Source: a virus. From it: DNA of 64,000 bases. Numbering within the stretch: position 1 is the first letter of the stretch; each line of letters opens with the position of its first letter. This document shows, in pieces, positions 125 to 63,600 of this stretch. The translations under genes and the position numbers were made by a program. Where the stretch lies: positions 76,865-140,864 of the IMG/VR virus record IMGVR_UViG_3300037313_000284. One strand, written 5' to 3'. A model generated the notes under the pieces. That model saw only the letters and a program-made list of their open reading frames with translations. It made no database searches and had not been told where the DNA came from.

Positions 125-868
125 TTAATTCCTCAAGCTCTGGCGGGCCTTCTCGCTTGCCGCGTCGAGGCTTTCTTGGCCGTATTGTCCAACGGAGTTT
201 AATAGGTTCGACATGCCGTCGTTCAAAGTACGCTTCAAACCTTCCAGCGAATTGCCGCTGTTGACTTTAGAACGAAGCGTGGAAATCTCGTTGATCAGGA
301 AGTTAATGAGCGCCAAGTACAACGGTGCAACCGCGTCGTTTACAACTCGATCCGCTAGAGCGTCAGTCGAAGACATGGCTCGCAGATCGTTCATTAACTC
401 GCGTGCAAGGTTTACCTGATTGGAGAACGCATACGCCGCGCGCTCTGCCTTGCTTGTATTAGCGGTGTTTTCGTAGCCAGGAAGCAGCCGGATAACCGCA
501 GCCAACGCTTCCCGCGTGACAATCTCTTGCGTCGCGGGCGAGTTATAAGGTTGCAGCTTATCGCTAATGCGTTTGGAGACCTTACGCATCTGTTTTTCGA
601 AGGCGGTATTAGCCTCTTCGAAACCGTCGTCATCATCGTCTTCATCGCCGCCTACCCGGCGGACACCAAGTTCAACCGCCTCTTCCCGCAAACGGTTGAT
701 CTTCTTTTTAGTAACCTTGGTAGGACCGACGCTAGCCGGATGATCTTCGTCCCAAGGGAGATCGTCATCCGCACTAACGTCGGCCACTTTAACCTTAGTC
801 TTCGTCTTGGTCGGCACGCTCTTCTTCGCTTTGAGCTTTGCCTTCAATTTGCCGAGCTTAACAGCCAT
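125..868 (-). CDS. hypothetical protein (basic N-terminus, acidic tract, helical C-terminus)
   Basis: 247-aa ORF, AAGGAC RBS, tight packing. Confidence 0.8.
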   Translation of the reverse strand: MAVKLGKLKAKLKAKKSVPTKTKTKVKVADVSADDDLPWDEDHPASVGPTKVTKKKINRLREEAVELGVRRVGGDEDDDDDGFEEANTAFEKQMRKVSKRISDKLQPYNSPATQEIVTREALAAVIRLLPGYENTANTSKAERAAYAFSNQVNLARELMNDLRAMSSTDALADRVVNDAVAPLYLALINFLINEISTLRSKVNSGNSLEGLKRTLNDGMSNLLNSVGQYGQESLDAASEKARQSLRN

Positions 869-883
869 AGCCCGTCCTTTGAG

Positions 884-1372
884 TTAACGTAGATAGCGGT
901 ATTGCAAGAACAACGCTGCAATCGATAGCAGCACCCCGGCGAGCGATCCGAGAATTAATGACCGACGGTCGCGACGCCACTCTTGATCGTACGTGCTAGG
1001 GCCGGAAATGTGTAAGACACCTCCGATGATAGCCATGTACGCGAGCAGGGTAACGACCGGCGAGTTAACAACCGAAGCAGAATCACCGGTGATATTGATA
1101 TACAGGTTGGCGAACCGCGAGCCTAACAAAGACGCCCACATGAGGAACATGCCGGTGACTAGTTGACTAACGCGGTCGAATTTGTGGTCTTTGGACGCAC
1201 GAATCATCAGCGGCGTGTACACAATAGTAACTGTGCCCACGATACCGATGCAAACGGCGTTCATGATAGGCAGTAGAGTCTTGTTAGGTACTACTAACGC
1301 GAGCAGGCCAAATAAGCAGGCCGCCGCCACGCTAAATAGCGCCAACTTAGGAAGATTTGGGAGAGGGCGCAT
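884..1372 (-). CDS. multi-pass membrane protein, possibly lysis-associated
   Basis: 4-5 hydrophobic segments; near holin-like gene. Confidence 0.7.
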   Translation of the reverse strand: MRPLPNLPKLALFSVAAACLFGLLALVVPNKTLLPIMNAVCIGIVGTVTIVYTPLMIRASKDHKFDRVSQLVTGMFLMWASLLGSRFANLYINITGDSASVVNSPVVTLLAYMAIIGGVLHISGPSTYDQEWRRDRRSLILGSLAGVLLSIAALFLQYRYLR

Positions 1373-1386
1373 CTACGTGTAAACCT

Positions 1387-1581
1387 CTATGGAATCGAGC
1401 CCTTAAGGGCCAATAGTTCTCGTATAGTGTCTTCGAGACGCTGTGATGCGCTAGCATTAGCAGCGTAACATTTATTAAAATCTTCTACGTACTGTTTGTT
1501 TGTGGGTTCAATGTGTTGCTGGATAGCGCTGGAAACATCAGAAGTCCTGCGCGATCTAGGCCGGAAATCTAGAAGTGACAT
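1387..1581 (-). CDS. small hypothetical protein
   Basis: Likely start MSLLDF directly after the holin-like stop. Confidence 0.55.
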   Translation of the reverse strand: MSLLDFRPRSRRTSDVSSAIQQHIEPTNKQYVEDFNKCYAANASASQRLEDTIRELLALKGSIP

Positions 1582-1582
1582 A

Positions 1583-1861
1583 TCAGCGCCTTGCCATGGT
1601 CGATAAGCTAATAAGTTGAGCAAGATTGTCCAGACCGCGCGTGTTAGCCGCTACGGTCGCGAGACTTTCTCTGCCTTCTATAATACGCTTCTCTTGAATT
1701 TCCATTAACGAAGTACGGAGTTCCTTGTTCTCCGTCTGCGTGGTCTTCCGGTCGCGTATTAATAACACAATGATACCGAGTTGGCCGAGGACGACGAGGC
1801 CAGCCCAACCTTGGGCTATAAGCCATTCAACAATTTTCAGTATTGCGTCTTCCAAGGCCAA
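1583..1861 (-). CDS. holin-like protein (single TM plus coiled coil)
   Basis: TTG start after GGTAGGAGAG; one TM helix then a charged coiled coil. Confidence 0.5.
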   Translation of the reverse strand: MALEDAILKIVEWLIAQGWAGLVVLGQLGIIVLLIRDRKTTQTENKELRTSLMEIQEKRIIEGRESLATVAANTRGLDNLAQLISLSTMARR

Positions 1862-1889
1862 CTCTCCTACCTTGTGTTACTAGCCGATG

Positions 1890-2699
1890 CTATTCCATTA
1901 CCAAGGCGTCGTACATCATTCCGAGGACGGTAAGGATTTTACTATCCGAAGCACCCTCATCCAGTTGCACTTGCCGCAGCGGCTTTCCGTACGTGTCGTA
2001 CTTACTATCCTTAGAAAGGAGGATTAAGTACGAACCCTCTTCACGGCGGATCAGGTAGACTTGCCTATCAGGAAACCCGTCAGGGGTACCCCGTTTGGCC
2101 CAAGCGGCGTCACCCGACTTAGGTTGACTAACAGGAACGAATCCCATTTCGGTCAACGAACGCATGACCTTCCCAGGCAATGCTGCTTCCGAACCAATAG
2201 TAGCCGATGTTTCAATCGACTTTTTATTAGCTGGCGATTTCTCCGCGATCTTCTCACCCAAGGCACGCCACATCGAGAGGAACTTCTCACGATCTTTGTG
2301 CCATGGGTTTACTAAATCACGCATATCACCCATGAACGACTTGTAGAAGGCGCTCATGCGTTTGTCCTTAGCCAATTCCTTGCGACGCTTTTGCGTTTTA
2401 ATGATATTGGCTATCTCGTCGTCACCATCGTCTTCTTCTTCGTCCTCATCACTGAGGCCGCCTAACAGGTCTTCTAGTAATTCGAAGATACCTGTTAGGG
2501 CCAAGACTCGGTCGTTACGGCTCATTTCCGGGTGATCGGCCGCATCCATTTCCTCGTCGTCGTCTTCCAACGAGTTATAATACGCAGACACGAATGCGAA
2601 GAGAGTCTTCTGCGCCACCGGATCGGTTAAGAACCGGTGTAACGCTTCGACTTCTACTTGCCCGTCTTGTTCATCGTCATCGTAAGCGCCACGTGCCAT
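1890..2699 (-). CDS. hypothetical acidic protein
   Basis: 269-aa ORF with CAGGTG RBS. Confidence 0.8.
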   Translation of the reverse strand: MARGAYDDDEQDGQVEVEALHRFLTDPVAQKTLFAFVSAYYNSLEDDDEEMDAADHPEMSRNDRVLALTGIFELLEDLLGGLSDEDEEEDDGDDEIANIIKTQKRRKELAKDKRMSAFYKSFMGDMRDLVNPWHKDREKFLSMWRALGEKIAEKSPANKKSIETSATIGSEAALPGKVMRSLTEMGFVPVSQPKSGDAAWAKRGTPDGFPDRQVYLIRREEGSYLILLSKDSKYDTYGKPLRQVQLDEGASDSKILTVLGMMYDALVME

Positions 2700-2733
2700 G
2701 TTTCACCTGTGTTAATAACTGCAACAGGTGCTA

Positions 2734-3501
2734 CTAAGCGATCAGGGCGCGTTTACGCATCATCTGTTCAAGTTGCGCGAAGAAAGCGGGTTGCGAAGCA
2801 TACAGCTTACGGAAGTAAGCAATCATGCCTTGCGCGTCACGCTTATCAAGCGCGGCGGTTTCCTTAGCTTCGTCGCTTTCGCCTTCGGCGACGAAGTGCG
2901 AGTGCGCCACGACGGCGGAGTGCGAACAAGGAACTAACTTGCCGGTCTTAACCGACAGGATATTAAGTTGACCGTTGTCGTCGTAGGACACGACGCCCGA
3001 GTCAGCCGTGGCCGTTTCCGGGTTAGTGAACAGAGCGAATTCGCCTTGATCCACCGTGCCGATACCAGCGTCAAAGAAGTTAGCAGCGATACGGCCAACC
3101 GATTGACGGGCCGCAGCCGCGAGCAACGCCGAGATATCCGTATCCGATTGCTTAACCAGACGACGAACGCCGGGTTGAGCCTCGACAACCTTCCACGTCG
3201 CGTCTTCATCATCCGCGAACACGTTGGCTTCAATAACTTCACGCATCTGCGAAGCATCTTCGTACGGACGGCTTTCAGTAACCGGACGCACGTGGAAAGC
3301 CACAGCGCGAGCTTGTTCGATTTGGGTCACGTTGCGAACCGTACCCGGCACGACTTCGATCTTACCTTCGAACTTGTCGCGAATCTTGTTCGCGTAGTCT
3401 TGCGCGGTTTCCACCTTGGACGTTTCCGCAACCACGGAGGCCACGTTTCCGCCAATCATTTCGAAGGTCTGAATGTTAGCAACAACAATCTTGTTAGACA
3501 T
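2734..3501 (-). CDS. putative virion structural protein
   Basis: 255 aa, AAGGA RBS, high-expression codon style, late cluster. Confidence 0.6.
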   Translation of the reverse strand: MSNKIVVANIQTFEMIGGNVASVVAETSKVETAQDYANKIRDKFEGKIEVVPGTVRNVTQIEQARAVAFHVRPVTESRPYEDASQMREVIEANVFADDEDATWKVVEAQPGVRRLVKQSDTDISALLAAAARQSVGRIAANFFDAGIGTVDQGEFALFTNPETATADSGVVSYDDNGQLNILSVKTGKLVPCSHSAVVAHSHFVAEGESDEAKETAALDKRDAQGMIAYFRKLYASQPAFFAQLEQMMRKRALIA

Positions 3502-3545
3502 TTGTATTAATCCTTAGAAGGTTCAGGTCCTATCGACCGCTAGCT

Positions 3546-4661
3546 CTATAAACTGACGCCGTTATCAAGTAAGCCGCCCAAGTTGCCGCGAGCTAGCATG
3601 AAGGCGGATGGCCGAATGTACGATCTACCATTATGAGCAAAGTTATTGTTCTGCCCACCGTAGCTAACCGTAACATGCAGATGGCCGATGGAAGAGCGAG
3701 AAAGCATCCCGCCTTTGATGCTGGTTAAGTTACTATCTAACCAGTTGCCTAGTTCATCCATTTTGGTTTGGATGAATTGTGTCCTATCCACATTAACTTG
3801 GATCGATCCACCTTGGAAATCGAAGGTGCTAAGACCTTCGGCCAAGTAGAGGCGATTAAGCATTTCGTGGAGTGCTGCAACTCTAAGCGCATGCGTTAGG
3901 GGTTGCGGCATGGTGTCGGGGCTAAAGCTAGTCTGTTGAGGCGGATGGATATTAACCCGATCCATGCCTCGGTATAAGCAATCGATTAACTCCGTCTCGT
4001 GGAAACTGAAATGCCCTAACCAACGCGTCATCTGCGATTGGTCGATGAACATTTTGAAGCTCGACAGCATGCTAGCCGTCTTCGTGGAGATAACAAACGC
4101 TTGGCGGTACTCGTGTTGCGGTACGCCACCGATTAGGTAACGCCAGTGCGCCACGTATTCGCCAACGCCAATAACTGGAACCTGCCATTCCACAGTAGCA
4201 CGAATGCTACCGGGGCTTTCAGGAGTTTGCGTCGAAACGCTATCCGTTACTGCGTTGGTAGACGCGATCTGCACGGTACCTGCTAGAGTTAGTACCTCGC
4301 ACTGAATGTCAGTAGCGCCTAACGGCAGGTAGATTTCATCCATTAACGAGACGTTGACCACGCCAAAACCCGCAGGGGCAGGACGTTGTACACCTTCGTC
4401 ATAGGACACGACTTGGAAGTCTTGTTCCGCCGTACCGTTAGAGTGCGTCCAAATCAGCTTGTAATAACCCGAAGTCGGGGTGCAAATCGGAGCAACTGCG
4501 GGAATGCTAAGAGTAGCACGCCACGTGTTGGCATCGATCTTCACCGCCGCTGTAATCGGGATACTAAGTCCGTTGAAGTCTTTAGCTACGACCGTGACCG
4601 CATCTTCCGCAGGATCAAAATCGCGCTCGACTACCGTGTTACTGCCGGGGTAGAGGATCAT
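3546..4661 (-). CDS. putative neck / head-tail adaptor protein
   Basis: Beta-rich N-half; C-half ELIDCLYRGMDRVN...FDFQGGSIQVNVDRTQ resembles large-phage neck proteins. Confidence 0.5.
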   Translation of the reverse strand: MILYPGSNTVVERDFDPAEDAVTVVAKDFNGLSIPITAAVKIDANTWRATLSIPAVAPICTPTSGYYKLIWTHSNGTAEQDFQVVSYDEGVQRPAPAGFGVVNVSLMDEIYLPLGATDIQCEVLTLAGTVQIASTNAVTDSVSTQTPESPGSIRATVEWQVPVIGVGEYVAHWRYLIGGVPQHEYRQAFVISTKTASMLSSFKMFIDQSQMTRWLGHFSFHETELIDCLYRGMDRVNIHPPQQTSFSPDTMPQPLTHALRVAALHEMLNRLYLAEGLSTFDFQGGSIQVNVDRTQFIQTKMDELGNWLDSNLTSIKGGMLSRSSIGHLHVTVSYGGQNNNFAHNGRSYIRPSAFMLARGNLGGLLDNGVSL

Positions 4662-5020
4662 ACGACGCCTCCATTAGTAATGAACCCATGCCATAAACCA
4701 CCGGCGCTTCCGTCAATAGAGGGCGTAACTGTTAACGTAGCAAAATCTAGTGCGCCGTGGACCGTCCAAGCGCACTCCACTTTGCAACCTTGCACGTGAC
4801 TGGTTTCTACCCCAGCCGCTCTTACTAATCCCATTTGACTATGCGGGCAATCCCAACGATCTTGGGTATAGCATTCGGGTTCCCGACATACTAAAAACTT
4901 GCGACCAGCTTCAAAGAAACAAGTCTGCCACCAATCAGGTTTAGTAGGGCTACGAAAAACAAAGCCAACTTTGCGTCCGTCTTCGATTAGCCACCTTGGG
5001 TCTAAATCGAGCAACCGCAT
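4658..5020 (-). CDS. DUF6527-like Cys/His protein
   Basis: Start MRLLDLDPRW; C-terminal W..TVTPSI...WHGFITNG motif. Confidence 0.6.
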   Translation of the reverse strand: MRLLDLDPRWLIEDGRKVGFVFRSPTKPDWWQTCFFEAGRKFLVCREPECYTQDRWDCPHSQMGLVRAAGVETSHVQGCKVECAWTVHGALDFATLTVTPSIDGSAGGLWHGFITNGGVV

Positions 5021-5021
5021 G

Positions 5022-6137
5022 TTACCACTTGCCTTCGAGAGCGAGGCTAACCTTAGAACCCAGCATGGCATTCGAAGGGAAGGTGACTTCGTAATAACCA
5101 GCCTTATTAAAGCGCACGCCACCGCCTAAGTCATCCGCCGAGTTGTTTTGGATGATTTGCAGAATGTAACGCGCCATGGTGGCTTTATTAATCACTTGCG
5201 GATTACACCGCAGCACGAGTTCGCCTTGCTCGCCAATCGACATTGAGTCAATCGCGCCTTGGAGAATCTGCGCTTGTGTTTGGAAGTCGAACTTCTCGCT
5301 ACCTTGCTTAGCCGGGCGACCAAGGAAAGTATTATAACGATTGGTCTTATCACCAAAGGTCTGAGCAACGTGCGGGGCCGTGCTATCGTTACGAACCGCA
5401 ACGCTCTTGCTAACGACGCTTGAGAAATAATCGATCAGCGCGGCGTCAGTCTGCTTAGTCCAGTGTCCGAGGTTACGACGCTTGCCGAGTTGAATGCTCG
5501 TACCAGCCGCATCGTGATAACTCGTATCCCAAACCGGGGGCAGGCGATCTTCCCACACGGACACTACAACTTCACCGCCGGTATCCAGCACCGTCTTAGC
5601 GCTAGACTTACATTCGACCGAGACGATGATGCTAAGCGTCATTTGCGCGAGACGATAGCTAATAACGTAGAGCGTTTGTTGTGCGCTCATTGCGAACTGC
5701 GTTTGGGTGGGTTCATCCTCTAGCAGTCCGTCGCGTTGCAGCGCCGTGGTGATCTTGAAGAAAGCGTTAGCCGGGTTATAAGTCGCCGAGCTAATCGGAT
5801 CACCCGGATTAACCGGAGCGCAGAGTTCTAACAGCCGGTTAGCCGTTTCAAGAATGCTGTCACGGATATTAAGCACCGACGCGCGACTGCGCGATGCGAT
5901 GTTCTCCGCCACCAAATGCGAATGCGCGACAACGGTATCGTGCAATTGATTAGTGGTTTGCAAGCAGGCGCTAAGTTTGTCGAAGATTACCTTCTCCGAC
6001 GTGACCGTAAGAGCGCGGCGATTCTTTCGCGCGCCTTGATTAATAACCGCATCAGCGCTAGCGATAGCGATTCGGGCGTCCGCTTCGGCAGCCCGAATAC
6101 TACGAGTGACCGAGTCGAAAGTCTGTTTCGAGGACAT
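5022..6137 (-). CDS. hypothetical protein, probably structural
   Basis: Long ORF, likely start MSSKQ; late motif upstream at 6201-6211. Confidence 0.75.
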   Translation of the reverse strand: MSSKQTFDSVTRSIRAAEADARIAIASADAVINQGARKNRRALTVTSEKVIFDKLSACLQTTNQLHDTVVAHSHLVAENIASRSRASVLNIRDSILETANRLLELCAPVNPGDPISSATYNPANAFFKITTALQRDGLLEDEPTQTQFAMSAQQTLYVISYRLAQMTLSIIVSVECKSSAKTVLDTGGEVVVSVWEDRLPPVWDTSYHDAAGTSIQLGKRRNLGHWTKQTDAALIDYFSSVVSKSVAVRNDSTAPHVAQTFGDKTNRYNTFLGRPAKQGSEKFDFQTQAQILQGAIDSMSIGEQGELVLRCNPQVINKATMARYILQIIQNNSADDLGGGVRFNKAGYYEVTFPSNAMLGSKVSLALEGKW

Positions 6138-6237
6138 TATTCTACAATCCCTATAGTGGCGCAAATAACGCCACCTAGTCCAACGGTGGCCGCGTATTCC
6201 CTAATAAATTACTGAAAATAGACATAGCTAATAAACG

Positions 6238-6267
6238 AAAATACCCTCACGTGTTAGGTGAGGGTAT
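6238..6267 (-). terminator. intrinsic terminator
   Basis: ATACCCTCAC/GTGAGGGTAT stem followed by U-tract on minus strand. Confidence 0.7.
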
Positions 6268-6274
6268 AGGATAT

Positions 6275-6500
6275 AAAACAAAAACGCCACCCTTCAGCGA
6301 GAAAGGGTGGCGTCTTCGGAGGGTCTAACCGGCAATTGCTTGGGAGAGAACGCGTACTGTGCGGGGGTTAGTACGCGGGGCGACTGTCCTAGCGATTGCC
6401 ACCCTCTATGGCAACAAGAGTTAGTATGGGCTAGTCCACTTAAGCAGTGAACACACTAGCAAGGCTGTAACTAGCGTTGCGTGTCATCTAACTCGCCATT
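6275..6500 (-). ncRNA. candidate structured non-coding RNA (~230 nt)
   Basis: Late motif at 6506-6517 upstream; nested stems AUGGC-GAGUUAG/CUAACUC-GCCAU, GCUAGU/ACUAGC, GAGGGU/ACCCUC, GGCAAUCGCU/AGCAAUUGCC, CGCGUACU/AGUACGCG; ends in terminator ACGCCACCCUU/AAGGGUGGCGU-UUUU; no convincing ORF. Confidence 0.65.
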
Positions 6501-6554
6501 ACCAACTAATAAATTAGTGGTTTAATGACACCTAACTCTTGGCCGTATTATTTA

Positions 6555-6662
6555 TCATACTCGACGTATAGTTCGTTTTCGTAGTCGGCGACGATCATTA
6601 GAATTTTTAGCTCGCCGTTCCGCGCGATTACGGGGACCGGGATCAATGATTGAATTCGCCAT
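6555..6662 (-). CDS. 35-aa Arg-rich protamine-like peptide (not in ORF track)
   Basis: MANSIIDPGPRNRAERRAKNSNDRRRLRKRTIRRV with GGAG RBS. Confidence 0.55.
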   Translation of the reverse strand: MANSIIDPGPRNRAERRAKNSNDRRRLRKRTIRRV

Positions 6663-6702
6663 GACTAGCACTCCGCTAGTGGAGGAAAGGGAGCAGACAT
6701 AG

Positions 6703-6762
6703 AAAAAGGGCCATCACGAAGTTACAAGACGCTAACGCAATCCTGAGTCCGTGATGGCCCTT
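6703..6762 (-). terminator. long-stem terminator downstream of histone-like gene
   Basis: AAGGGCCATCACG/CGTGATGGCCCTT stem followed by U-tract on minus strand. Confidence 0.6.
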
Positions 6763-6865
6763 CTGTAACACATAGAAATTAGTCAGGTCGTCAGTCTAAA
6801 CTTAAGCCTGAGCCTTAATGCGGTCCCCCTACGGTGAACCTACAGTCTTAGACCTGACTTATTAA

Positions 6866-56394: not shown

Positions 56395-56429
56395 AAGGGC
56401 GGTGGCGAAAGCTGCCGCCCTTATATTTT
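56395..56429 (+). terminator. intrinsic terminator
   Basis: AAGGGCGGTGGC-GAAA-GCTGCCGCCCTT. Confidence 0.8.
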
Positions 56430-56443
56430 GAACGGAGAACTGC

Positions 56444-56812: not shown

Positions 56813-56813
56813 T

Positions 56814-56842
56814 TTGACACCCGAGTACCGTTCCTGTAGAAT
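56814..56842 (+). promoter_or_regulatory. sigma70-type promoter
   Basis: TTGACA-N17-TAGAAT. Confidence 0.8.
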
Positions 56843-56869
56843 AATATAGGAACGGGAAAGGGGCGTGTC

Positions 56870-57124
56870 ATGCCTTTAACTACTATTCGAGAACGGGTGG
56901 TTTCAACCATCGATCGTGTCGTGAAACTGGATAATAACAGAACGATACGTGACGAGGATGACTTGTATGTCGACTTGGACTTCGACAGTCTCGAAGCTAC
57001 CGAGTTCGTCATCGAACTGGAAACGGAATTCGATATTAGTATCTCCGACGTAGAGTCGGAAGCTATGCGAACTGTTAAAGACGCGTGCAACTTGGTCGAT
57101 AAGCTACTGTCGGTAGCTGCTTAA
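56870..57124 (+). CDS. acpP: acyl carrier protein
   Basis: DLDFDSLEATEFVIELETEFDISISD. Confidence 0.85.
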   Translation: MPLTTIRERVVSTIDRVVKLDNNRTIRDEDDLYVDLDFDSLEATEFVIELETEFDISISDVESEAMRTVKDACNLVDKLLSVAA

Positions 57125-57142
57125 CATCGAGGATAGTTTCTC

Positions 57143-57421
57143 ATGGCTGCTGAGATTGAACCTTTTCTGCGCAAGCTTATTAACGAAATTCGTATGCACA
57201 CTCCGGGGTTCTGCCCTGATCGTCTGTCTCCGGACACGGAAGTAGACGAAGAATTGGACCTTACTGAGTTGTGCGATAGCTTGGATCGAATCGAAATAGC
57301 TATTCACGTTGAAGAGGAATTCGACGTGTCGATTCACGAAGATGAGGCCGACAATCTCCGCACTTACGGTGAACTTGTGCGGTTTGTGGAGCGCACTGTT
57401 AGCGCGTCACAAGCCACGTAA
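57143..57421 (+). CDS. acpP: acyl carrier protein (second copy)
   Basis: CDSLDRIEIAIHVEEEFDVSI..DEA..LRT. Confidence 0.85.
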   Translation: MAAEIEPFLRKLINEIRMHTPGFCPDRLSPDTEVDEELDLTELCDSLDRIEIAIHVEEEFDVSIHEDEADNLRTYGELVRFVERTVSASQAT

Positions 57422-57434
57422 GTTAGGAGGACGG

Positions 57435-57932
57435 ATGCACTTGTTATTAACGGCAACGTATTTGATGCTATGCGTGTTGAGCGCTGTGCGTCTATACCAC
57501 GCTCGGAATCTAGCTCGTCGCAGCTTATATGCTGTACTAATTGCGGGTTGGGCAGGGAAAGCGTTGCTACCGGTGTATCCGTTTACTGACGAAAAGATAT
57601 TGCAAACGTTCTTAATGTTTGACGCAATGCTTTTCGTTGCGGCTTTGGGTCTATTGTCTATTACGCCGAGGTGGTGGCTACGTTGGCTGATGCTTTCGGT
57701 GCAACTGGAGTTCGTGGTAACGATCTTCATTTTGTTGCACTATTTCGGTAAAGGTACGCCACACGTTGTTCTTGTCTGGTTGGTGTTATTAAACCTTGTG
57801 TGCGCTGTATTCGTGGCTGCGCCAGGGTGGACTAAACGCATTCCAGGACTTAGACAAAAACCCTTACGTCGTAGTGATAGGCACATGCACAAGGTAACGC
57901 GTAACCATGATAGTTCGGACACTTCCTTGTAA
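57435..57932 (+). CDS. multi-pass membrane protein
   Basis: AGGAGG RBS before MHLLL; about 5 TM segments. Confidence 0.75.
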   Translation: MHLLLTATYLMLCVLSAVRLYHARNLARRSLYAVLIAGWAGKALLPVYPFTDEKILQTFLMFDAMLFVAALGLLSITPRWWLRWLMLSVQLEFVVTIFILLHYFGKGTPHVVLVWLVLLNLVCAVFVAAPGWTKRIPGLRQKPLRRSDRHMHKVTRNHDSSDTSL

Positions 57933-58167
57933 GTACGCTGTGGCGTCAAGTGAAGCCTACGTGATGGATGATCGTACTAATAACTTGCGGAAGGTAGAAA
58001 ACCCACCACGCGATTTGTGTGCGTGGGCGCTATTCGATCCTCACGCTCCTGCAAAGTTATTAGATGTGCCACCACACGTTTCGCGCAACGCCATAGCTGG
58101 GCATTTAATGGCCGCAGACGACTGCCTCATGTGTCCCTGCTACGAACCCGGAGACCCGGTAGAATGA
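57907..58167 (+). CDS. Cys-containing hypothetical protein
   Basis: CKY...C...CLMCPCY. Confidence 0.55.
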   Translation: MIVRTLPCKYAVASSEAYVMDDRTNNLRKVENPPRDLCAWALFDPHAPAKLLDVPPHVSRNAIAGHLMAADDCLMCPCYEPGDPVE

Positions 58168-58282
58168 CAAAACGTATTAATTCCTGGAAGATATTTTGGG
58201 AAGGTTTGGGCAGTCTTGCTGCCTGCATTGTATACGGACCGGGATTTCTCATTCGGAAAATGAGAAACCGAGGTTAAATCGT

Positions 58283-58357
58283 GGGCCGGTAGCTCAGTGG
58301 TAGAGCATTCGACTTTTAATCGAATGGTCGTGGGTTCGAGTCCCACCCGGCCTACCA
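58283..58357 (+). tRNA. tRNA-Lys(UUU)
   Basis: GGGCCGG acceptor, TTCGA-CTTTTAA-TCGAA anticodon arm, GTTCGAG, encoded CCA. Confidence 0.95.
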
Positions 58358-58379
58358 TCTTTTAGTATAGGGGTTACTA

Positions 58380-59456
58380 ATGAAGGGGCGTATCGTTGCG
58401 CTGGGTATTCTTGGCGCAGTCATGTTGGGCGTTGCCGCTACACATGCGGAACCCACATTTCCGGAAATGAACGGCCGGTTAGTAATGGACGAGGCCGATC
58501 TGATTCCTGCGGGTCGCGAAGCCGCGTTAGCTAACGAATTGCATCGATACAGCGTGACGCATGGTCCGCAAATTGCGGTGGTTACTATTCCATCGCTCGA
58601 AGGTGCTGACCCGGTGGACTATGGTAACCGGTTGTTCCGCCATTTGAAGTTGGGCGACAAAAAGCGCAACGATGGCGTGCTGCTAATGATCGCCCCAGCG
58701 GAACGAAAGATTCGCATCGAAGTTGGCTATGGCTTGGAACCGCAGCTGACCGATCTTGTTAGTAACCAAATAAATCGTACGGTCATCGGCCCGAAGCTTA
58801 AAGCTGGAGATTTCCCCGGCGGTATCGAAGCGGGCGTGGCCGCTATCGAGCAAGCTGTTATGCCGGAACCTGTCGTGTCGGCTGCTTCGGTTACTACTGC
58901 GGAAACCAATAAAGGTTTGGGCGTCGTCCTGTTAACCGTGTTACTAATAATTAGTGCTATCGTCGGGACTGTAATATACGAGCATCGTCGCGCCCGGCGT
59001 GCAAGGTCGCGTGAGGTACGCGAGACAGAAGCAAGGTTGCGACGTGAGGCGCTTAACCGCAAGCGCGAAGCCGAGTGGCGCGATTTCGCACGACGCGAAG
59101 CTATTAGTCAGGAGAACATACGGCGCGATGCACAAGGGGCGTTTCGACGCCGCCCCAAAACGCAACCTCGTCCGCCTGCCCGCGCCGCAACCATGAGTGC
59201 AGCCGCCGCAGCTTCAGTTAGTACGCAAGCTAGTCAACGGCGAGACAACGAAATTCGTGAACGCGAACAGAATAGGTTAGCAGAAGAACGTCGTGCACGT
59301 GATCGTCGTGACGAAGAAGACCGTAGAAGGCGCGAAGACTCGTATGCCTCTAGCAGCACTTCGTCGTGGTCTTCTAACAGCGACTCTTCTAGTAGTAGCA
59401 GTGACTACGGCGGCGGTGGTTCTAGTGGCGGCGGCGGTGACACTAGCAGTTATTAG
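58380..59456 (+). CDS. TPM-domain (YgcG/Psb32-like) membrane protein
   Basis: Signal peptide, QIAVVTIPSL, NDGVLL, RIEVGYGLEP, TM helix, GGGGSSGGGG tail. Confidence 0.9.
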   Translation: MKGRIVALGILGAVMLGVAATHAEPTFPEMNGRLVMDEADLIPAGREAALANELHRYSVTHGPQIAVVTIPSLEGADPVDYGNRLFRHLKLGDKKRNDGVLLMIAPAERKIRIEVGYGLEPQLTDLVSNQINRTVIGPKLKAGDFPGGIEAGVAAIEQAVMPEPVVSAASVTTAETNKGLGVVLLTVLLIISAIVGTVIYEHRRARRARSREVRETEARLRREALNRKREAEWRDFARREAISQENIRRDAQGAFRRRPKTQPRPPARAATMSAAAAASVSTQASQRRDNEIREREQNRLAEERRARDRRDEEDRRRREDSYASSSTSSWSSNSDSSSSSSDYGGGGSSGGGGDTSSY

Positions 59457-59506
59457 GACAGAAATAACGTTGTAATCTGACAGTCATCACGGCTGAAGTG
59501 TCCGAT

Positions 59507-59535
59507 TTGACCCTTGGGCCGTGGTGTGGTAATAT
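59507..59535 (+). promoter_or_regulatory. sigma70-type promoter
   Basis: TTGACC-N17-TAATAT. Confidence 0.7.
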
Positions 59536-59680
59536 CTAGTGGTGGGGCATACCCAACATTTAGGAGGGACTGACGCGTCTTCACTTAATAAACTTCTTCG
59601 GTGCTAGTGACCGGAAACTAGCAGAAATCGTTAAGACACAACGCACAATTATCTCAGAGATAAGAGGACTTAAGAAGCTG

Positions 59681-60004
59681 ATGACCGACTCCTTCGAAAA
59701 CCTAACGCGTGAAGTCAACGAAAACGAAACCGTCATGCAATCGGCTGTTCTTCTGCTTAATAACCTTAGTGCAGAATTGAAAGCTGTGAAGGACGACCCG
59801 GTGGCTATCCAAGCGCTGGCCGATAAGTTGGATAGTAACAGCAACGCATTGGCGGCTGCAATTGCGGCTAACACTATTGCTGAAGACGAAGAAGAGCCGG
59901 AACCTGAACCGGAAGTAGACGAAGAACCTGACGACGAACCAGAGCCGGAACTTCCTCTTGAAGGAGAAACTGGCAGCACTTCGGATGCCGAAACGTCTAC
60001 GTAG
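59681..60004 (+). CDS. coiled-coil protein with acidic EP-repeat tail (possible non-AUG upstream start at 59573)
   Basis: Frame is open upstream to AGGAGG at 59562. Confidence 0.75.
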   Translation: MTDSFENLTREVNENETVMQSAVLLLNNLSAELKAVKDDPVAIQALADKLDSNSNALAAAIAANTIAEDEEEPEPEPEVDEEPDDEPEPELPLEGETGSTSDAETST

Positions 60005-60025
60005 GCGTTTTAATAAATGAAGGCG

Positions 60026-60056
60026 AGGGCGGCAGGGAAACTTGTCGCCCTTTATT
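60026..60056 (+). terminator. intrinsic terminator
   Basis: AGGGCGGCAGG-GAAA-CTTGTCGCCCT plus TTATT. Confidence 0.7.
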
Positions 60057-60072
60057 AATGTGGAAAGCAAAT

Positions 60073-60345
60073 ATGACGCGCAAATACACGCTGACCGAAC
60101 TGGATACGATGCGGCAGGCTATCGCGGGTCTACGTTGGCGAGAGGACCCTACTAAGCAGTTCAATGGTTACAGCAGTAACGACCTGACGTCGTTTAACGC
60201 ACGAGTTGAAGACGAACTTCGGACTCATATGGCGAACGGCACGGAGCCTCAAGAATTAGTAGAAGCCGACAGAGCGATTGCTAAAGAGAGGCATAGGTAT
60301 TTGGTGGAAGCTGGTATAATCGTGTACGTTGATAGAATTTATTAA
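60073..60345 (+). CDS. hypothetical protein
   Basis: Start MTRKY. Confidence 0.65.
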   Translation: MTRKYTLTELDTMRQAIAGLRWREDPTKQFNGYSSNDLTSFNARVEDELRTHMANGTEPQELVEADRAIAKERHRYLVEAGIIVYVDRIY

Positions 60346-60354
60346 TATCACCGT

Positions 60355-60439
60355 GCCCCGGTGGTGGAATTGGTAGACGCGACGGACTTAAAATCCGTTG
60401 CCTTCGGGCGTGCCGGTTCGAGTCCGGCTCGGGGCACCA
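60355..60439 (+). tRNA. tRNA-Leu(UAA)
   Basis: ACGGA-CTTAAAA-TCCGT anticodon arm, long variable arm, encoded CCA. Confidence 0.95.
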
Positions 60440-60601
60440 TAATATTAATAGAGGTTGGAATGAAGGCGCTGTTAGTAGAAAACCAAAAGCTGTTCGGGCT
60501 GATGCGGCTCTGCGGCGGTTGTCGTCACACTAATAACGGTGTATATCCATGCCAGCAACACCTTGAAGCGGCGGAATATCTTAATGCTAGGTGGAAGTGT
60601 T

Positions 60602-60862
60602 ATGACGGAACCTAAACGCGGCCCGCCGATCCATTGTTACGAATCTATATTTGATGCTCCGTTTATGCGGAGAGTAGAAGTCGATAGTTCTGAAGCTAAC
60701 GAACCGCTACTGCGTGGCGAGCATCGATTTCTAGTGTGGACTTGTCCGAGTTGCGGTTGGCGACAAAACGCTGATAAACCTCGCATCTGCGGACGTAACG
60801 GTGAGCCGTGCAACGGCGACCGTTCGTGGGATTTAGATACTAGAAAGAAAGAGGGCAAATGA
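60602..60862 (+). CDS. Zn-ribbon protein
   Basis: CPSC...C...C. Confidence 0.55.
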   Translation: MTEPKRGPPIHCYESIFDAPFMRRVEVDSSEANEPLLRGEHRFLVWTCPSCGWRQNADKPRICGRNGEPCNGDRSWDLDTRKKEGK

Positions 60863-62481
60863 CCACCACGATTGCAGTGCAAGATACTAACGCACGATAC
60901 CATGTTGATGAATACAACGAATTGTGCGTGCATATGCAACGTCGATTCGACCGGCTGACTGCTGATAAGACGCCTGTGTTTCAGACTGACGCTACTGACG
61001 TGTTGTGGACGGCCTACGTCAACAGCTTTCCGGAAAGCGATCAACAGTATCATAACTGTTCGCATTGCCGACATTTCATGAAGCGTTTCGGCGGTCTCGT
61101 AGTTATTAACGAAGACGGTTCGCTGAAGTCGGTCATGTGGCCTTCTCGCGATGACACCGCAGACATGAAATATTACGGCGCTGCGGTTGAAAACGTGCGT
61201 AAATTGGTTATTAAGGCTAAAGTCAAAGGTCCGTTCCTCAATTCGCAGCACTCGCTGGGTACGCGCGAAACTACAGAGTGGACTCACTTCGCCATCGTTC
61301 CTACGCATTTGTTCCGCGATGCGAAATTGACGGCGGGCCAGAAGATGGCTGAAAAGCGCCAAGACTTCATTAACATGAAGCGGGCGTTAGAGGATTTCCC
61401 GTTAGACGCGCTCGTGCAAATGATGCGCATTATTAACACGGAAGCTCTCTATAATAACGACGCAGTGGTGGGTCCGGGCAAATGGTTGCACGACCTACAA
61501 GTGCGCCTGTCGGGAGTTAAGCACAGCCGGGCTAGGGACAACCTGCTTTGGCGTGCTATCGGCAGTGCTCCGGATGCATTCTGTCATGTTCGTGGCAGTA
61601 TGGTCGGCACACTGCTTGAAGACATTAAAGCTGGTCTTAGCTTTGACGACATTAGTAACAAATTCAAAGCTAAGATGCATCCGTTGAGGTACCAGCGGCC
61701 GCAGGCTCCGCCTTCGGAAGGCAACGTTGTCCAAGCTGAAAAGCTAGTTGCGAAACTTGGCATCACTAACTCACTAGCTCGACGTTGGGCTAATATTGCA
61801 GATATCCAAGAGAAGCTTTGGGAACCTACGGTAGTTAAGCCTGCCGCAAGTGATGGTGTTTTCGGGCATCTTAAGCCAAAGGCTCGTACGTTACAGCCTG
61901 AGATTAATACACCAGTCAAAACTATGACCTGGGACAAGTTCCAACGTACCGTGTTGCCTGAGGCTGAAAAGATCGAGTATTGCCCGTCTGCGCAATCCAG
62001 ATCGTTTGCTGGGCTACTAACTGCGTTGGACGAAAACGATCCGCCGATCATCCTATGGGATCATCCGGAAAAACGTAACCCGGTGTCTTGGTATTTCCAC
62101 CAACAAGCCCGGCCTATCGAATGGAACCTTCCCGTCAACGCGTGGGTCAACGTGTTAGTTATTACACCGGCCCCATATTCTTGGCATGGTGGTTCCTATC
62201 CGCAGTTTGGGCAGCGTGTGTTCTTCGTCCTCGAAAACATGCAGGACATGCGTAGCGAAGCCGGTACTGCGTTGTTCCCGCAGATACTAAAGAGCGAACT
62301 GCGCGAAGTGCGTGCTACTATTGAAGCTCATTCGAAAGTGTCGCGAACGCACAAAACCGAAGCGCCACAAGCGTGTGCGGTTGTGTTTAGTTCGGGTAAC
62401 GACGACGGCGAACCTATGTCGCTGAAAGTTACTACGAAGGGCAACGTCCAACAGAAGTATCTGCTGGATCGATGGGATTGA
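60859..62481 (+). CDS. phage protein of unknown function with HNCxxC motif
   Basis: QYHNCSHCRHFMKRFGGLV; 540 aa. Confidence 0.8.
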   Translation: MTTTIAVQDTNARYHVDEYNELCVHMQRRFDRLTADKTPVFQTDATDVLWTAYVNSFPESDQQYHNCSHCRHFMKRFGGLVVINEDGSLKSVMWPSRDDTADMKYYGAAVENVRKLVIKAKVKGPFLNSQHSLGTRETTEWTHFAIVPTHLFRDAKLTAGQKMAEKRQDFINMKRALEDFPLDALVQMMRIINTEALYNNDAVVGPGKWLHDLQVRLSGVKHSRARDNLLWRAIGSAPDAFCHVRGSMVGTLLEDIKAGLSFDDISNKFKAKMHPLRYQRPQAPPSEGNVVQAEKLVAKLGITNSLARRWANIADIQEKLWEPTVVKPAASDGVFGHLKPKARTLQPEINTPVKTMTWDKFQRTVLPEAEKIEYCPSAQSRSFAGLLTALDENDPPIILWDHPEKRNPVSWYFHQQARPIEWNLPVNAWVNVLVITPAPYSWHGGSYPQFGQRVFFVLENMQDMRSEAGTALFPQILKSELREVRATIEAHSKVSRTHKTEAPQACAVVFSSGNDDGEPMSLKVTTKGNVQQKYLLDRWD

Positions 62482-62489
62482 TGTTAACA

Positions 62490-62513
62490 AAACGGGGGCT
62501 TCGGCCCCCGTTT
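62490..62513 (+). terminator. intrinsic terminator
   Basis: AAACGGGGGC-TTCG-GCCCCCGTTT. Confidence 0.85.
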
Positions 62514-62532
62514 ACATGTGAGGGCCTGGGGC

Positions 62533-62832
62533 ATGACGATGACCAAGATTTCTGTGTTTCCTACGCGTGAGCAATTAGTAAACATAGGTCAAGCCAATTT
62601 CACATGGGGTTGGGGCATGGCTTTTCTGGTGGAAACCGAGCTAGGTAACTTCCAGTGGCTTTCTCCTGACTACGGTGGAGATAACTCGCTGCGGCCCTTT
62701 CTTGGGGACTACAAGGATTGGATTAAATTTCAAGGTATCGAATTCGGAAGGTCTAAAGGCCATCACGATCTAGTTCGATATTGCCCTAACTTCAACTACC
62801 AACCTGATGCGGCAATCGACCCGGAGCGTTAA
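62533..62832 (+). CDS. hypothetical protein
   Basis: ORF track. Confidence 0.6.
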   Translation: MTMTKISVFPTREQLVNIGQANFTWGWGMAFLVETELGNFQWLSPDYGGDNSLRPFLGDYKDWIKFQGIEFGRSKGHHDLVRYCPNFNYQPDAAIDPER

Positions 62833-62834
62833 TA

Positions 62835-63029
62835 ATGTTCGAACCTAAAGTCGGGCAATTCATGATCCACGACGAAGGCACCGGCGACGACACGCTTTAC
62901 AATTCCAAGGAAGAAGCTATTAACGCAGCCAACGCCGAGTGGGACGAATACGTGTTGCCGGGAGAAATCGGGCCTGCGGTAGCGATCATGGAAATCGTAG
63001 AAGTCGTGCGACTGAATAAGAAAGATTAG
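62835..63029 (+). CDS. small acidic hypothetical protein
   Basis: GGAG RBS. Confidence 0.65.
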   Translation: MFEPKVGQFMIHDEGTGDDTLYNSKEEAINAANAEWDEYVLPGEIGPAVAIMEIVEVVRLNKKD

Positions 63030-63032
63030 TAA

Positions 63033-63272
63033 ATGACAACGCTAATTGATAGCGATCGAACAATTATTAAGATTAAGAATATGCTGAGACAGGAAATGAC
63101 TGCTAACAACATGTCAGTTCCAAAGTTAGCCAAACGCATGAATAAGCACACGCAATTAATCTATCGCGCCCTGGATCACAAACACAACACGGACGTAGAA
63201 TTCCTAATCATGTGCTTTCTCGCTTTAGGTAAAACACTACATTTAGACTTGGTACCTATCAAAGAATCCTGA
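63033..63272 (+). CDS. XRE-like HTH protein
   Basis: MSVPKLAKRM...IYRAL...ALG. Confidence 0.7.
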   Translation: MTTLIDSDRTIIKIKNMLRQEMTANNMSVPKLAKRMNKHTQLIYRALDHKHNTDVEFLIMCFLALGKTLHLDLVPIKES

Positions 63273-63283
63273 TTATTAACCGT

Positions 63284-63367
63284 GCGGGCGTGGCGAAATG
63301 GCAACCGCAGTAGATTTAGGTTCTACCGCCGAAAGGCTTGGAGGTTCGAGTCCTCTCGCCCGCACCA
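63284..63367 (+). tRNA. tRNA-Leu(UAG)
   Basis: GTAGA-TTTAGGT-TCTAC anticodon arm, variable arm, encoded CCA. Confidence 0.95.
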
Positions 63368-63387
63368 TTAATAATCAAGGGTGCAAT

Positions 63388-63600
63388 ATGCGCTTCAGGA
63401 AATTCGATAGCTTCAAATGGCGCATGGCTACCAAGGCCGAGATTGAATCCTTCAATCGGGTACCTATTTCGGTGGTCTCAGTTAGTAATCAAAGTGGCGT
63501 AGAAGTGCAGATTGATTTGCGACGAATTCATCTAGAGGACGAAGAGCGCGTCATTCTCGACCGAATTGCATCCACGGTACTCCAACGTAATAAGGGTTAG
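63388..63600 (+). CDS. small hypothetical protein
   Basis: Start MRFRK after AAGGG. Confidence 0.6.
   Translation: MRFRKFDSFKWRMATKAEIESFNRVPISVVSVSNQSGVEVQIDLRRIHLEDEERVILDRIASTVLQRNKG

What the first reader, a model, noticed from the sequence alone, without database searches (positions are those of the whole stretch)
708..63488. Genome-wide roughly tenfold enrichment of TTAGTAA/TTACTAA (YTA-N-TAR family)
Seen: by eye I count about 75 exact TTAGTAA/TTACTAA (e.g. 708, 4674, 7541, 18112, 18204, 28824, 36121, 44191, 53522, 58374, 63026). Roughly 6-8 are expected for a 7-mer on both strands at ~50% GC (my estimate). Relatives TTATTAA, TTAATAA, CTAATAA, CTACTAA and TTACTAG are also conspicuous. 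They occur in both orientations, inside genes and between them. Inference: a dispersed, near-palindromic, HIP1/Chi/parS-like signal, for example binding sites for the phage chromatin proteins, a self-marking or modification site, or a packaging/recombination cue.
Basis: partly seen in the sequence, partly recalled or inferred. Interest (0 to 1): 0.7.

Follow-up and report, generated by a model that had tools for sequence, protein, structure and literature searches.

The report
Evenly spaced TTANTAA palindrome in phage
An uncultured large phage and its close relatives carry the 7-letter palindrome TTANTAA about once every 440 bases, ten times the chance rate, evenly spaced and forced into genes through codon choice, so an unidentified two-fold symmetric protein most likely reads it as a mark that the probable GC-rich host DNA lacks.

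Summary
TTASTAA occurs 78 times in the window, against 7.2±2.5 in dinucleotide-preserving shuffles. The full word is TTANTAA with any central base: 153 copies in the window and 318 in the 141-kb contig, against 31 expected.

The excess survives every codon-level null. With proteins held fixed there are 238 sites against 51.5±6.5. Of the tripeptides that could carry the word, 56% are spelled with it, against 11% expected.

Recognition is two-fold symmetric, with a strict 1-bp spacer and soft outer positions. Sites avoid one another within about 70 bp. They are kept at homologous positions three times more often than other words. Density stays at 1.8-3 per kb in six related metagenomic phages with 45-55% GC. 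A complete 206-kb sister phage has none above chance, and 448 kb of host-like Caulobacterales DNA has zero.

This is a selected DNA-level signal. It is most likely a docking site for a symmetric phage protein that marks phage DNA. A clade-restricted N6-adenine methylase is a weak candidate.

The scan has reported similar evenly spaced palindromes, spelled differently, in other phages.

The parts
13..63840 (.). Array of 153 perfect TTANTAA sites in the window. It is part of 318 sites on the 140,864-bp contig. Mean spacing is about 420-440 bp.
   Evidence: Expected 13.9 in the window and 30.6 in the contig.
708..714 (.). Example intragenic site, TTAGTAA.
18112..18118 (.). Example site TTACTAA, overlapped by the one-off variant CTAATAA at 18115. 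It lies inside the 1249-aa gene.
25870..25879 (.). Two sites overlapping by 3 bp (TTATTAATAA). This is one of only two pairs closer than 30 bp on the whole contig. The other pair is at 28594-28603.
39530..39536 (-). Site forming the exact spacer between a Shine-Dalgarno sequence (AGGAGA) and the ATG of gene 39065-39529. In all, 23 of 157 genes have this arrangement. Other examples in the window are at 36121, 38904, 40287, 45715, 50968, 55968, 58374 and 63026.
27550..28290 (-). Beta-class N6/N4 DNA methyltransferase gene. It is the only enzyme candidate found for acting on the word. It is restricted to the motif-bearing clade within this phage family. Its target is unknown.
   Evidence: PF01555, E 2e-30. 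Nearest solved structures are CcrM and HpyAVI. Orthologues at 62-82% identity lie on motif-rich contigs. It is absent from the complete motif-free sister genome.
24161..25168 (-). Toprim (DnaG-type) primase gene. It is the candidate for the rival 'priming site' reading. It is also present in the motif-free sister phage.
   Evidence: PF13155, E 1e-10. A 37%-identical homologue is present in G001.
58283..58357 (+). tRNA-Lys(UUU). With tRNA-Leu(UAA) at 60355-60439 and tRNA-Leu(UAG) at 63284-63367, it decodes AAA, TTA and CTA, codons the word brings into genes. These tRNAs are not specific to the motif clade.

Best explanation
TTANTAA is a clade-specific recognition word kept by selection on the DNA itself. 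More precisely it is 5'-(T>C>A>G)TA-N-TAA, needing at least one perfect TAA half-site and a strict 1-bp spacer. Its most likely role is as the docking site of a two-fold symmetric (dimeric) DNA-binding protein or enzyme encoded by the phage. Because the word contains only A and T, it is essentially absent from the probable GC-rich alphaproteobacterial host. About 2 sites per kb therefore mark phage DNA as distinct from host DNA.

One site is enough for a stretch of about 70 bp, which suggests that each bound complex occupies or serves that length.

Shown: the enrichment, its DNA-level nature, the symmetry, the even spacing, the positional conservation, the restriction to one clade, and the absence from host-like DNA.
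For: 1. The excess is 10.4x genome-wide (318 against 30.6). No other 3-N-3 palindrome exceeds about 2.2x.

2. The signal is at the DNA level, not the protein level. Of frame-1-compatible tripeptides, 56% are spelled with the word against 11% expected, and 20.6% against 2.3% in frame 0. Non-coding DNA is 11.8x enriched.

3. The recognition logic is symmetric. The preference at position 1 (T>C>A>G) mirrors that at position 7. Inner positions and the spacer length are strict. Single outer mismatches remain 2-4x enriched, but double mismatches are at 1x. The same holds in pooled relatives. The flanks carry no information.

4. Spacing is regular. Gaps under 70 bp number 24 against 84 expected when pooled. 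At under 30 bp the ratio falls to about the un-enriched baseline. One-off variants are also depleted within 80 bp of perfect sites. CV is 0.85 against 0.99±0.055, and 0.80 against 0.97±0.06 in relatives.

5. Of all sites, 27% sit at homologous columns in pairwise orthologue alignments at 62% nucleotide identity. The figure is 8.9% for all 3-N-3 words and 8.3% for AT-only words.

6. Density is held at 1.8-3.0 per kb across relatives with 45-55% GC, which corresponds to O/E of 4-20x. Relatives with 51-53% TerL identity are not significantly enriched, including a complete 206-kb genome with 23 sites against a control of 19.

7. There are 0 sites in 448 kb of Caulobacterales-type DNA, against 8.7 expected. 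That DNA was reached through the phage's PEP-CTERM tails.
Against: No reader protein was identified. Pfam and PHROG scans of about 110 proteins found no ParB, RHH_1, GapR or MucR family match, and only one marginal HTH.

There is no helical phasing between sites, which a wrapping or one-face lattice might predict. The host assignment rests mainly on 25-50-residue PEP-CTERM tail similarity, with weaker side evidence. Two sites per kb is many more than any known partition, packaging or occlusion system uses. Nothing computed here distinguishes a passive binder from an enzyme such as a methylase, nickase or primase.
Confidence: 0.5

Rival explanations
1. The word is the target of the clade's own beta-class N6-adenine methyltransferase (window 27550-28290). 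This would be an xANTx-type site like GANTC of CcrM/HinfI. The sites would be kept abundant because the methyl marks are used, a relationship like that of HIP1 to its methylases.
For: A 3-N-3 interrupted palindrome is the classic form of a Type II methylase site. The core TANTA parallels GANTC, and the best solved-structure match is CcrM. The methylase is one of the best conserved proteins of the clade, at 62-82% identity. It is present on every motif-rich contig where that region was sampled (G000, L014, L109, and the contig of L007). It is absent, together with any PF01555 gene, from the complete motif-free sister genome, although the flanking genes there are syntenic.
Against: Homologues at 56-59% identity sit in unrelated phages that have 0-5 TTANTAA sites per 17-20 kb. 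The family alignment shows no residue block that separates motif-rich from motif-free carriers. The co-occurrence within the family is a single phylogenetic event. Methylation alone explains neither the enrichment nor the 70-bp exclusion. The graded tolerance at outer positions is unusual for a methylase.
Confidence: 0.15
2. The sites serve an enzyme that travels along the DNA and needs a site within reach. Examples are start sites for the phage Toprim primase (5'-YTA on both strands), nicking or loading sites for recombination-dependent replication, or Chi-like sites that tame a nuclease.
For: Even spacing, a short maximum gap (1,990 bp against a Poisson mean of 2,767) and no gain from a second site within 70 bp are what a 'nearest site' function predicts. 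A palindrome offers the same word on both strands. From my own knowledge, some DnaG primases start at CTA or TTA templates. The phage encodes a Toprim primase, a DnaB-like helicase, SbcCD-like nuclease subunits and an NAD ligase.
Against: Known primase and Chi words are read on one strand and are not palindromes. Here both half-sites act together and the degeneracy is mirror-symmetric. The primase is also present, at 37% identity, in the motif-free sister phage. Paired nicks at a palindrome would break the DNA.
Confidence: 0.15
3. The word accumulates through a mutational or repair drive. An example would be very-short-patch-like conversion of near-matches into the word, or biased gene conversion. 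It would have no function of its own.
For: Transition neighbours are the most common variant at each position (CTANTAA 4.2x, TCANTAA 1.7x, TTGNTAA 1.4x). VSP repair is known to distort word frequencies in E. coli (my own knowledge).
Against: A drive would deplete near-matches, but none is clearly depleted. It would not produce a 70-bp exclusion zone or regular spacing. It would not hold density constant from 45 to 55% GC. The word contains no C or G, so deamination repair does not apply.
Confidence: 0.05
4. The word is a translation-level feature. It could provide hidden stop codons (TAN-TAA) in off-frames, reflect a favoured codon pair, or act as an AU-rich spacer between the Shine-Dalgarno sequence and the start codon.
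For: In 23 of 157 genes the word forms exactly the spacer between the Shine-Dalgarno sequence and the start codon. That is about 20-fold above even the genome-wide density. In addition, 24 stop codons overlap a site. Every intragenic site places TAA in one alternative frame.
Against: Some 239 of 318 sites lie wholly inside ORFs. TAA alone is only 1.2x enriched and A.TAA only 1.9x, so stop codons as such are not selected. The TTA half is needed as much as the TAA half, and the symmetry has no meaning for RNA. The encoded tripeptides are diverse. The enrichment survives nulls that preserve codons, proteins and codon junctions. The spacer hot spot is weak or absent in relatives L010 and L012.
Confidence: 0.05

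Closest known systems
HIP1 (GCGATCGC), the highly iterated palindrome of cyanobacteria
   Same: Both are short palindromes many-fold over-represented genome-wide, inside genes in several frames and between genes. Both are kept across related genomes, and neither has a settled function. A methylase gene co-occurs with the word in both cases.
   Different: HIP1 is 8 bp, GC-rich, uninterrupted and cellular, and it contains known methylase targets. This word is 7 bp, AT-only and has a free centre. It is carried by a phage clade and is absent from host-like DNA. No methylase has been tied to it.
17-bp dyad repeat of Cluster O mycobacteriophages (TGTTCGGNNNCCGAACA; PMC4351075)
   Same: Both are palindromes dispersed through a phage genome, within and between genes.
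   Different: The Cluster O repeat has about 34 copies of a 14-specified-base site, roughly 1 per 2 kb. Here a 6-specified-base site has 318 copies at 2.3 per kb, with a measured exclusion zone and proven codon-level cost.
Uptake signal sequences (USS/DUS) and Chi
   Same: These are frequent words that distinguish own from foreign DNA. USS are reported to be unusually evenly spaced (my own knowledge). In all cases density, rather than exact position, is maintained.
   Different: USS, DUS and Chi are asymmetric words read on one strand by uptake or RecBCD/AddAB machinery of cells. This word is strictly two-fold symmetric and belongs to a virus.
GANTC, the CcrM/HinfI methylase site of Alphaproteobacteria and their phages
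   Same: Both have the same architecture (xA-N-Tx). The phage methylase's nearest solved relative is CcrM. The probable host group uses GANTC.
   Different: GANTC is depleted here, at 0.52x. The enriched word is TTANTAA, for which I found no described methylase or restriction enzyme.
Yap1/AP-1-type bZIP sites (TTASTAA, TGASTCA)
   Same: This is an identical 7-bp overlapping-half-site palindrome read by a dimer whose two-fold axis lies on the central base pair (my own knowledge). It shows that such a short site can be read by one dimer.
   Different: These are eukaryotic transcription factors. No bZIP is known or was found in this phage, and here the central base is entirely free.

Membership tests
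Highly iterated palindrome (HIP1-type genomic word) | A short palindrome many-fold over-represented across the whole genome, in coding and non-coding DNA. | tested here: met
   318 against 30.6. Coding density is 1.9 per kb and non-coding 3.3 per kb. The spread is even.
Highly iterated palindrome (HIP1-type genomic word) | The excess is not explained by codon usage or protein sequence. | tested here: met
   238 against 51.5±6.5 with proteins fixed. 56% against 11% of compatible tripeptides carry the word. Repeated in five relatives.
Highly iterated palindrome (HIP1-type genomic word) | The word contains the target of a cognate methyltransferase encoded in the same genome. | tested here: inconclusive
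   A PF01555 methylase co-occurs with the word within the family. Homologues also occur in motif-free phages, and no specificity signature was found.
Chi (RecBCD/AddAB regulatory word) | An asymmetric word read on one strand, with orientation bias. | tested here: not met
   The word is a perfect interrupted palindrome with mirror-symmetric degeneracy.
parS/ParB-type or KorB-type site sets | A palindrome of 14-16 bp or more, in a few to tens of copies, with a ParB-family gene in the same genome. | tested here: not met
   The word has 6 specified bases and 318 copies. No PF02195 match was found in the 141 kb, but the contig is only about 68% complete.
Type II restriction-modification recognition site | A short (interrupted) palindrome recognised by a methylase and endonuclease pair. 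Genomes exposed to it avoid the site. | tested here: not met
   The form fits, but the site is enriched 10x rather than avoided. True restriction-type palindromes in this genome are purged, with seven 6-mers at 0 copies. The gene coupled to the methylase is an orphan with no homologues.
Primase recognition sites | A strand-specific short template word, and a primase whose specificity matches it. | not testable with these tools
   A Toprim primase is present, but it is also present in the motif-free sister. Specificity cannot be computed.
   Central base counts are A 66, C 75, G 82 and T 95. Other AT-only words are not enriched.

The most novel reading that the evidence does not exclude
This phage clade marks its own DNA by sequence rather than by base modification. 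An AT-only 7-bp palindrome, written every 440 bp or so and virtually absent from the GC-rich host chromosome, would be read by a dedicated dimeric phage protein. That protein could gather, protect or selectively process phage DNA, while host DNA, and rival phage DNA lacking the word, is left out. In function this would be a sequence-encoded counterpart of T4's modified cytosine or of Chi-based self-recognition.
Probability: 0.3. Interest if true: 0.85.

Novelty: new variant of a known kind. Interest (0 to 1): 0.65.

Why it matters
If the word is read by a protein, this is a compact and experimentally tractable case of a virus shaping its whole genome around a recognition signal. That includes about 240 places inside its own genes, the encoded amino acids, and 15% of its ribosome-binding spacers.

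The case offers several things:
- a measured footprint of about 70 bp;
- a possible mechanism by which an unmodified phage genome is told apart from host DNA.

It also adds the densest and shortest example so far to a growing set of evenly spaced palindromes in uncultured phages. That points to a general, undescribed layer of phage genome organisation. In practice, such words could serve as lineage markers for binning these phages from metagenomes.

Tried and rejected
1. Stop-codon reassignment. TAG-TAA runs suggested recoding, but the standard code gives dense long ORFs of up to 1,249 aa and all sites avoid the stop frame.

2. Codon usage, dipeptides or codon-junction bias as the cause. All rejected by the three nulls.

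3. A longer hidden element. The flanks carry no information.

4. Thymidine-hypermodification enzyme. I guessed this for the 540-aa protein at 60859-62481 from the host range of its homologues. Synteny with relatives shows it is the ResIII-type helicase next to DnaB, so the idea was dropped.

5. Phage tRNAs (Lys-UUU, Leu-UAA, Leu-UAG) as compensation for the word. The same tRNAs occur in motif-free relatives, so they are not specific.

6. Helical phasing of sites. None found: power 2.8 at 10-11 bp, with only the 3-bp coding period present.

7. Local compensatory turnover within 150 bp between genomes. Not seen.

8. Host-type nucleoid proteins GapR and MucR, and also ParB and RHH_1. No match in the contig.

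9. The gene coupled to the methylase (179 aa) as a reader. It has no homologue among 5.8 billion proteins, so it is not conserved in the clade.

10. Genes shared by motif-rich loci and missing from the motif-free sister. Those that could be named are nucleotide-metabolism or lysis genes: dNMP kinase, PNK-like and spanin-like.

11. IMG/VR scans with this phage's own TerL and helicase found nothing. Whole-record searches of metagenome loci were not possible.

12. Full-text search for 'TTANTAA' returned only an unrelated mammalian promoter study.


Full report
WHAT IS THERE

The window is the right-hand 64 kb of a 140,864-bp IMG/VR virus contig. The contig has 51% GC, is linear, and CheckV estimates it at about 68% complete. 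It encodes a tail sheath, baseplate, portal, large terminase, ribonucleotide reductase, NAD ligase, SbcCD-like nuclease subunits, a DnaB-like helicase and a 1,910-aa SNF2 helicase. This is an uncultured large myovirus. Its terminase is only 33-37% identical to any cultured phage, the nearest being Rhizobium RHph_N46, Pseudomonas PaBG and Erwinia Yoloswag.

There are 42 TTAGTAA and 36 TTACTAA, 78 in total, against 7.16±2.46 in dinucleotide-preserving shuffles. TTATTAA (45) and TTAATAA (30) are equally frequent, so the real word is TTANTAA. It has 153 copies in the window against 13.9 expected, and 318 on the contig against 30.6, an excess of 10.4x. The four central bases are used 66, 75, 82 and 95 times, and the twelve bases on either side carry no information. 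TTACTAA and TTAATAA are the two most frequent of all 7-mers.

THE SIGNAL LIES IN THE DNA, NOT THE PROTEINS

I called 158 ORFs with a codon model trained on the contig. Sites occur in the two reading frames that avoid an in-frame stop. There are 182 as xTT-ANT-AAx and 56 as TTA-NTA-Axx.

Against three nulls the 238 intragenic sites compare as follows:
- codon permutation: 29.4±5.1
- synonymous shuffle with every protein unchanged: 51.5±6.5
- synonymous shuffle that also keeps all codon-junction dinucleotides: 90.4±6.4

Both frames are enriched about 8-fold.

The cleanest statistic concerns tripeptides. Of 323 that could carry the word in frame 1, 182 (56%) are spelled with it, against 11% expected from codon usage. 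In frame 0 the figures are 20.6% against 2.3%. The compatible tripeptides are themselves 1.36x more common than amino-acid composition predicts, so protein sequence has also yielded. The tripeptides are diverse, for example ITN, VTK, IIK and VTN.

Non-coding DNA is enriched 11.8-fold over its own composition. The same excess over synonymous shuffles is seen in five related contigs and in none of five outgroups.

RECOGNITION LOGIC

The spacer is strict. TTATAA, TTANNTAA and TTANNNTAA are all at 1.0-1.3x. Inner positions are strict as well, with variants at 0.7-1.7x.

The outer positions are soft, but only on one side at a time. NTANTAA is enriched 10.4x for T, 4.2x for C, 3.3x for A and 2.1x for G, and the mirror image holds at position 7. 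The doubly degenerate ATANTAT, CTANTAG and GTANTAC sit at 0.7-1.1x. Pooled relatives show the same table.

Mirror-symmetric degeneracy, together with the need for at least one perfect half-site, is the behaviour expected of a two-fold symmetric reader of double-stranded DNA with a binding-energy threshold. It has no meaning for RNA or for a single-strand reader. The free central base, as often G or C as A or T, argues against AT-hook or H1-like reading of the minor groove.

SPACING

Sites are more regular than random. The coefficient of variation of gaps is 0.85 against 0.99±0.055. The longest gap is 1,990 bp against a Poisson mean of 2,767.

The main feature is a zone of about 70 bp around each site in which further sites are rare. 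Pooled over the contig and five relatives, there are 24 gaps under 70 bp where 84 are expected. Below 30 bp the ratio is 0.13, which is about the un-enriched baseline. Beyond 70-80 bp the ratio returns to 1 or slightly above. One-mismatch variants are also depleted within 80 bp of perfect sites, at 84 against about 216 expected. They therefore behave as members of the same functional class.

In the relatives alone, gaps under 50 bp number 11 against 27.3±4.6 (0 of 2,000 simulations), and the CV is 0.80 against 0.97±0.06. There is no 10-11-bp phasing.

The simplest reading is a saturating benefit: a second site within about 70 bp adds nothing.

RELATIVES

A search with the terminase found metagenomic relatives. 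Contigs with 62-67% identical TerL come from NCBI, ENA, JGI and Logan assemblies, and so are independent data. They carry the word as follows:

| Locus | Sites | Expected | GC |
|---|---|---|---|
| L007 | 56 | 2.8 | 55% |
| L008 | 53 | 6.5 | 48% |
| L010 | 42 | 6.8 | 48.5% |
| L012 | 41 | 9.7 | 45% |

Two more contigs were reached through the methylase, L014 with 61 against 4.1 and L109 with 15 against 3.2. Density stays at 1.8-3.0 per kb while the composition-based expectation varies about 3.5-fold. This is what selection for density predicts.

Relatives at 53%, 51% and 36% TerL identity are not enriched. L011 has 6 against 3.2, L009 has 3 against 3.7, and L013 has 1 against 5.5. L009 belongs to a complete 205,908-bp genome with terminal repeats (G001). 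That genome holds 23 sites, against 19 for the reversed control word.

In pairwise codon alignments of reciprocal-best orthologues (124 kb aligned, 62% nucleotide identity), 27% of sites are at the same column in the partner. The figure is 8.9% for all 3-N-3 words and 8.3% for AT-only words, and the motif ranks 88th of 2,974 words. In the terminase gene, L007 and L008 share 6 of their 6 and 7 sites despite a 7-point GC difference. Individual sites are thus under some constraint, but most turn over while density is kept. I saw no local compensation within 150 bp.

HOST AND CONTRAST WITH HOST DNA

Two phage proteins end in PEP-CTERM sorting tails. The tail of one matches chromosomal PEP-CTERM proteins of Phenylobacterium, other Caulobacterales and some sphingomonads at up to 88% identity over 25 residues.

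Other observations fit a GC-rich alphaproteobacterial host:
- GANTC, the CcrM site, is depleted: 0.52x here and 0.39x in G001.
- The tRNAs decode A/U-ending codons.
- A motif-free relative carries a permuted tmRNA with an ANDN...AVAA tag. From my own knowledge, this tag type is alphaproteobacterial.

In the 448 kb of host-like DNA fetched (67.8% GC), TTANTAA occurs 0 times against 8.7 expected. If that host assignment is right, the word discriminates phage from host DNA at least several-hundred-fold. This is inference and rests mainly on short tail similarity.

WHO READS IT

The only DNA-modifying candidate is a 246-aa beta-class N6/N4 methyltransferase (PF01555, E 2e-30). Its nearest solved structures are CcrM and H. 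pylori HpyAVI.

In favour:
- Its orthologues at 62-82% identity lie on motif-rich contigs of this family.
- The complete motif-free sister lacks it and any PF01555 gene, although the flanking genes (a 236-aa protein, a metallophosphoesterase and the Toprim primase) are syntenic.

Against:
- That pattern is one evolutionary event.
- Homologues at 56-59% identity sit in unrelated phages with essentially no TTANTAA.
- The alignment shows no block of residues separating the two groups.
- The gene translationally coupled to it is an orphan.

No ParB, RHH_1, GapR or MucR family match was found. About 110 proteins scanned against Pfam or PHROGs gave no convincing sequence-specific DNA binder.

A SECONDARY PATTERN

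In 23 of 157 genes the word sits exactly between the Shine-Dalgarno sequence and the start codon, beginning at -8, -7 or -6. In addition, 24 stop codons overlap a site. This is about 20-fold above even the genome-wide density.

It may be the cheapest place to put a 7-bp AT-only word. Alternatively the word may also help translation initiation there. The hot spot is weaker or absent in two relatives, so I treat it as secondary.

VERDICT

The enrichment is real, selected at the DNA level, symmetric, evenly spaced, partly conserved in position, and confined to one clade of uncultured large phages.

- Best explanation (about 0.5): docking sites for a symmetric phage-encoded protein that mark phage DNA against a host that lacks the word.
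- Rivals: target of the clade's methylase (0.15), sites for a DNA-tracking enzyme such as the primase (0.15), a mutational drive (0.05), and a translation-level effect (0.05).

I found no description of this word in the searchable literature. The nearest published analogues are HIP1 of cyanobacteria and the 17-bp dyad repeats of Cluster O mycobacteriophages. Earlier notes of this scan report similar evenly spaced palindromes with other spellings in other uncultured phages, including a GANTC-blanketed phage. Those notes are unchecked leads, not evidence.

Noticed in passing
Whole contig, including window 1-64000. Also the sister genome G001 (L098-L108).: Restriction-type 6-bp palindromes are purged to an extreme degree. 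AGATCT, AGTACT, CCCGGG, CTCGAG, CTGCAG, GGATCC and GGGCCC have 0 copies against 33-38 expected. CCGCGG, GCCGGC and TGGCCA have 1 copy each. The sister genome shows a similar but not identical list. GANTC is at 0.52x here and 0.39x in the sister. This implies unmodified DNA under heavy Type II restriction pressure.
   Followed up: partly
window 31411-32154 (-) and 37853-38578 (-): Two phage proteins end in PEP-CTERM sorting signals (PF07589, E 4e-7 and 7e-7). The tail of the first matches Phenylobacterium/Caulobacterales chromosomal proteins at up to 88% identity over about 25 residues. This is a lead to the host, and an odd feature for phage proteins, since they would be substrates of the host exosortase.
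   Followed up: partly
window 58283-58357, 60355-60439, 63284-63367 (+): tRNA-Lys(UUU), tRNA-Leu(UAA) and tRNA-Leu(UAG). One third of all TTA codons lie in perfect or one-off copies of the word. However, motif-free relatives carry the same tRNA types.
   Followed up: yes
L011 14703-15101: A motif-free relative encodes a permuted (two-piece) tmRNA with the tag ANDNVNIAAELAVAA. From my own knowledge, this form is typical of Alphaproteobacteria.
   Followed up: no
L008 5677-9468, L012 5667-9452, L010 10001-13690, L011 3725-6679: Inteins with LAGLIDADG domains interrupt the DnaB-like helicase, the large terminase or the ResIII helicase in several relatives. They are absent from the corresponding genes of this contig.
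   Followed up: no
window 63566-64000 and contig 20-1765: The two ends of the contig carry the N- and C-terminal parts of the DnaB-like helicase. In relatives this is one gene between the ResIII helicase and the terminase. The contig ends are therefore adjacent in the relatives' gene order, but the reading frames do not join directly. No family A DNA polymerase (PF00476) is present in the 141 kb.
   Followed up: partly
window 27032-28290 (-), compared with G001 19845-21697: The methylase, a coupled 179-aa orphan and a 97-aa gene form a cassette of about 2.6 kb. The cassette is missing from the otherwise syntenic stretch of the sister genome.
   Followed up: yes
L110 (unrelated phage carrying a 59% methylase homologue): A different interrupted palindrome, AAANTTT, is 5.6x enriched (18 against 3.2), and GANTC is at 0.27x. 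Other phages may have their own favoured words.
   Followed up: no
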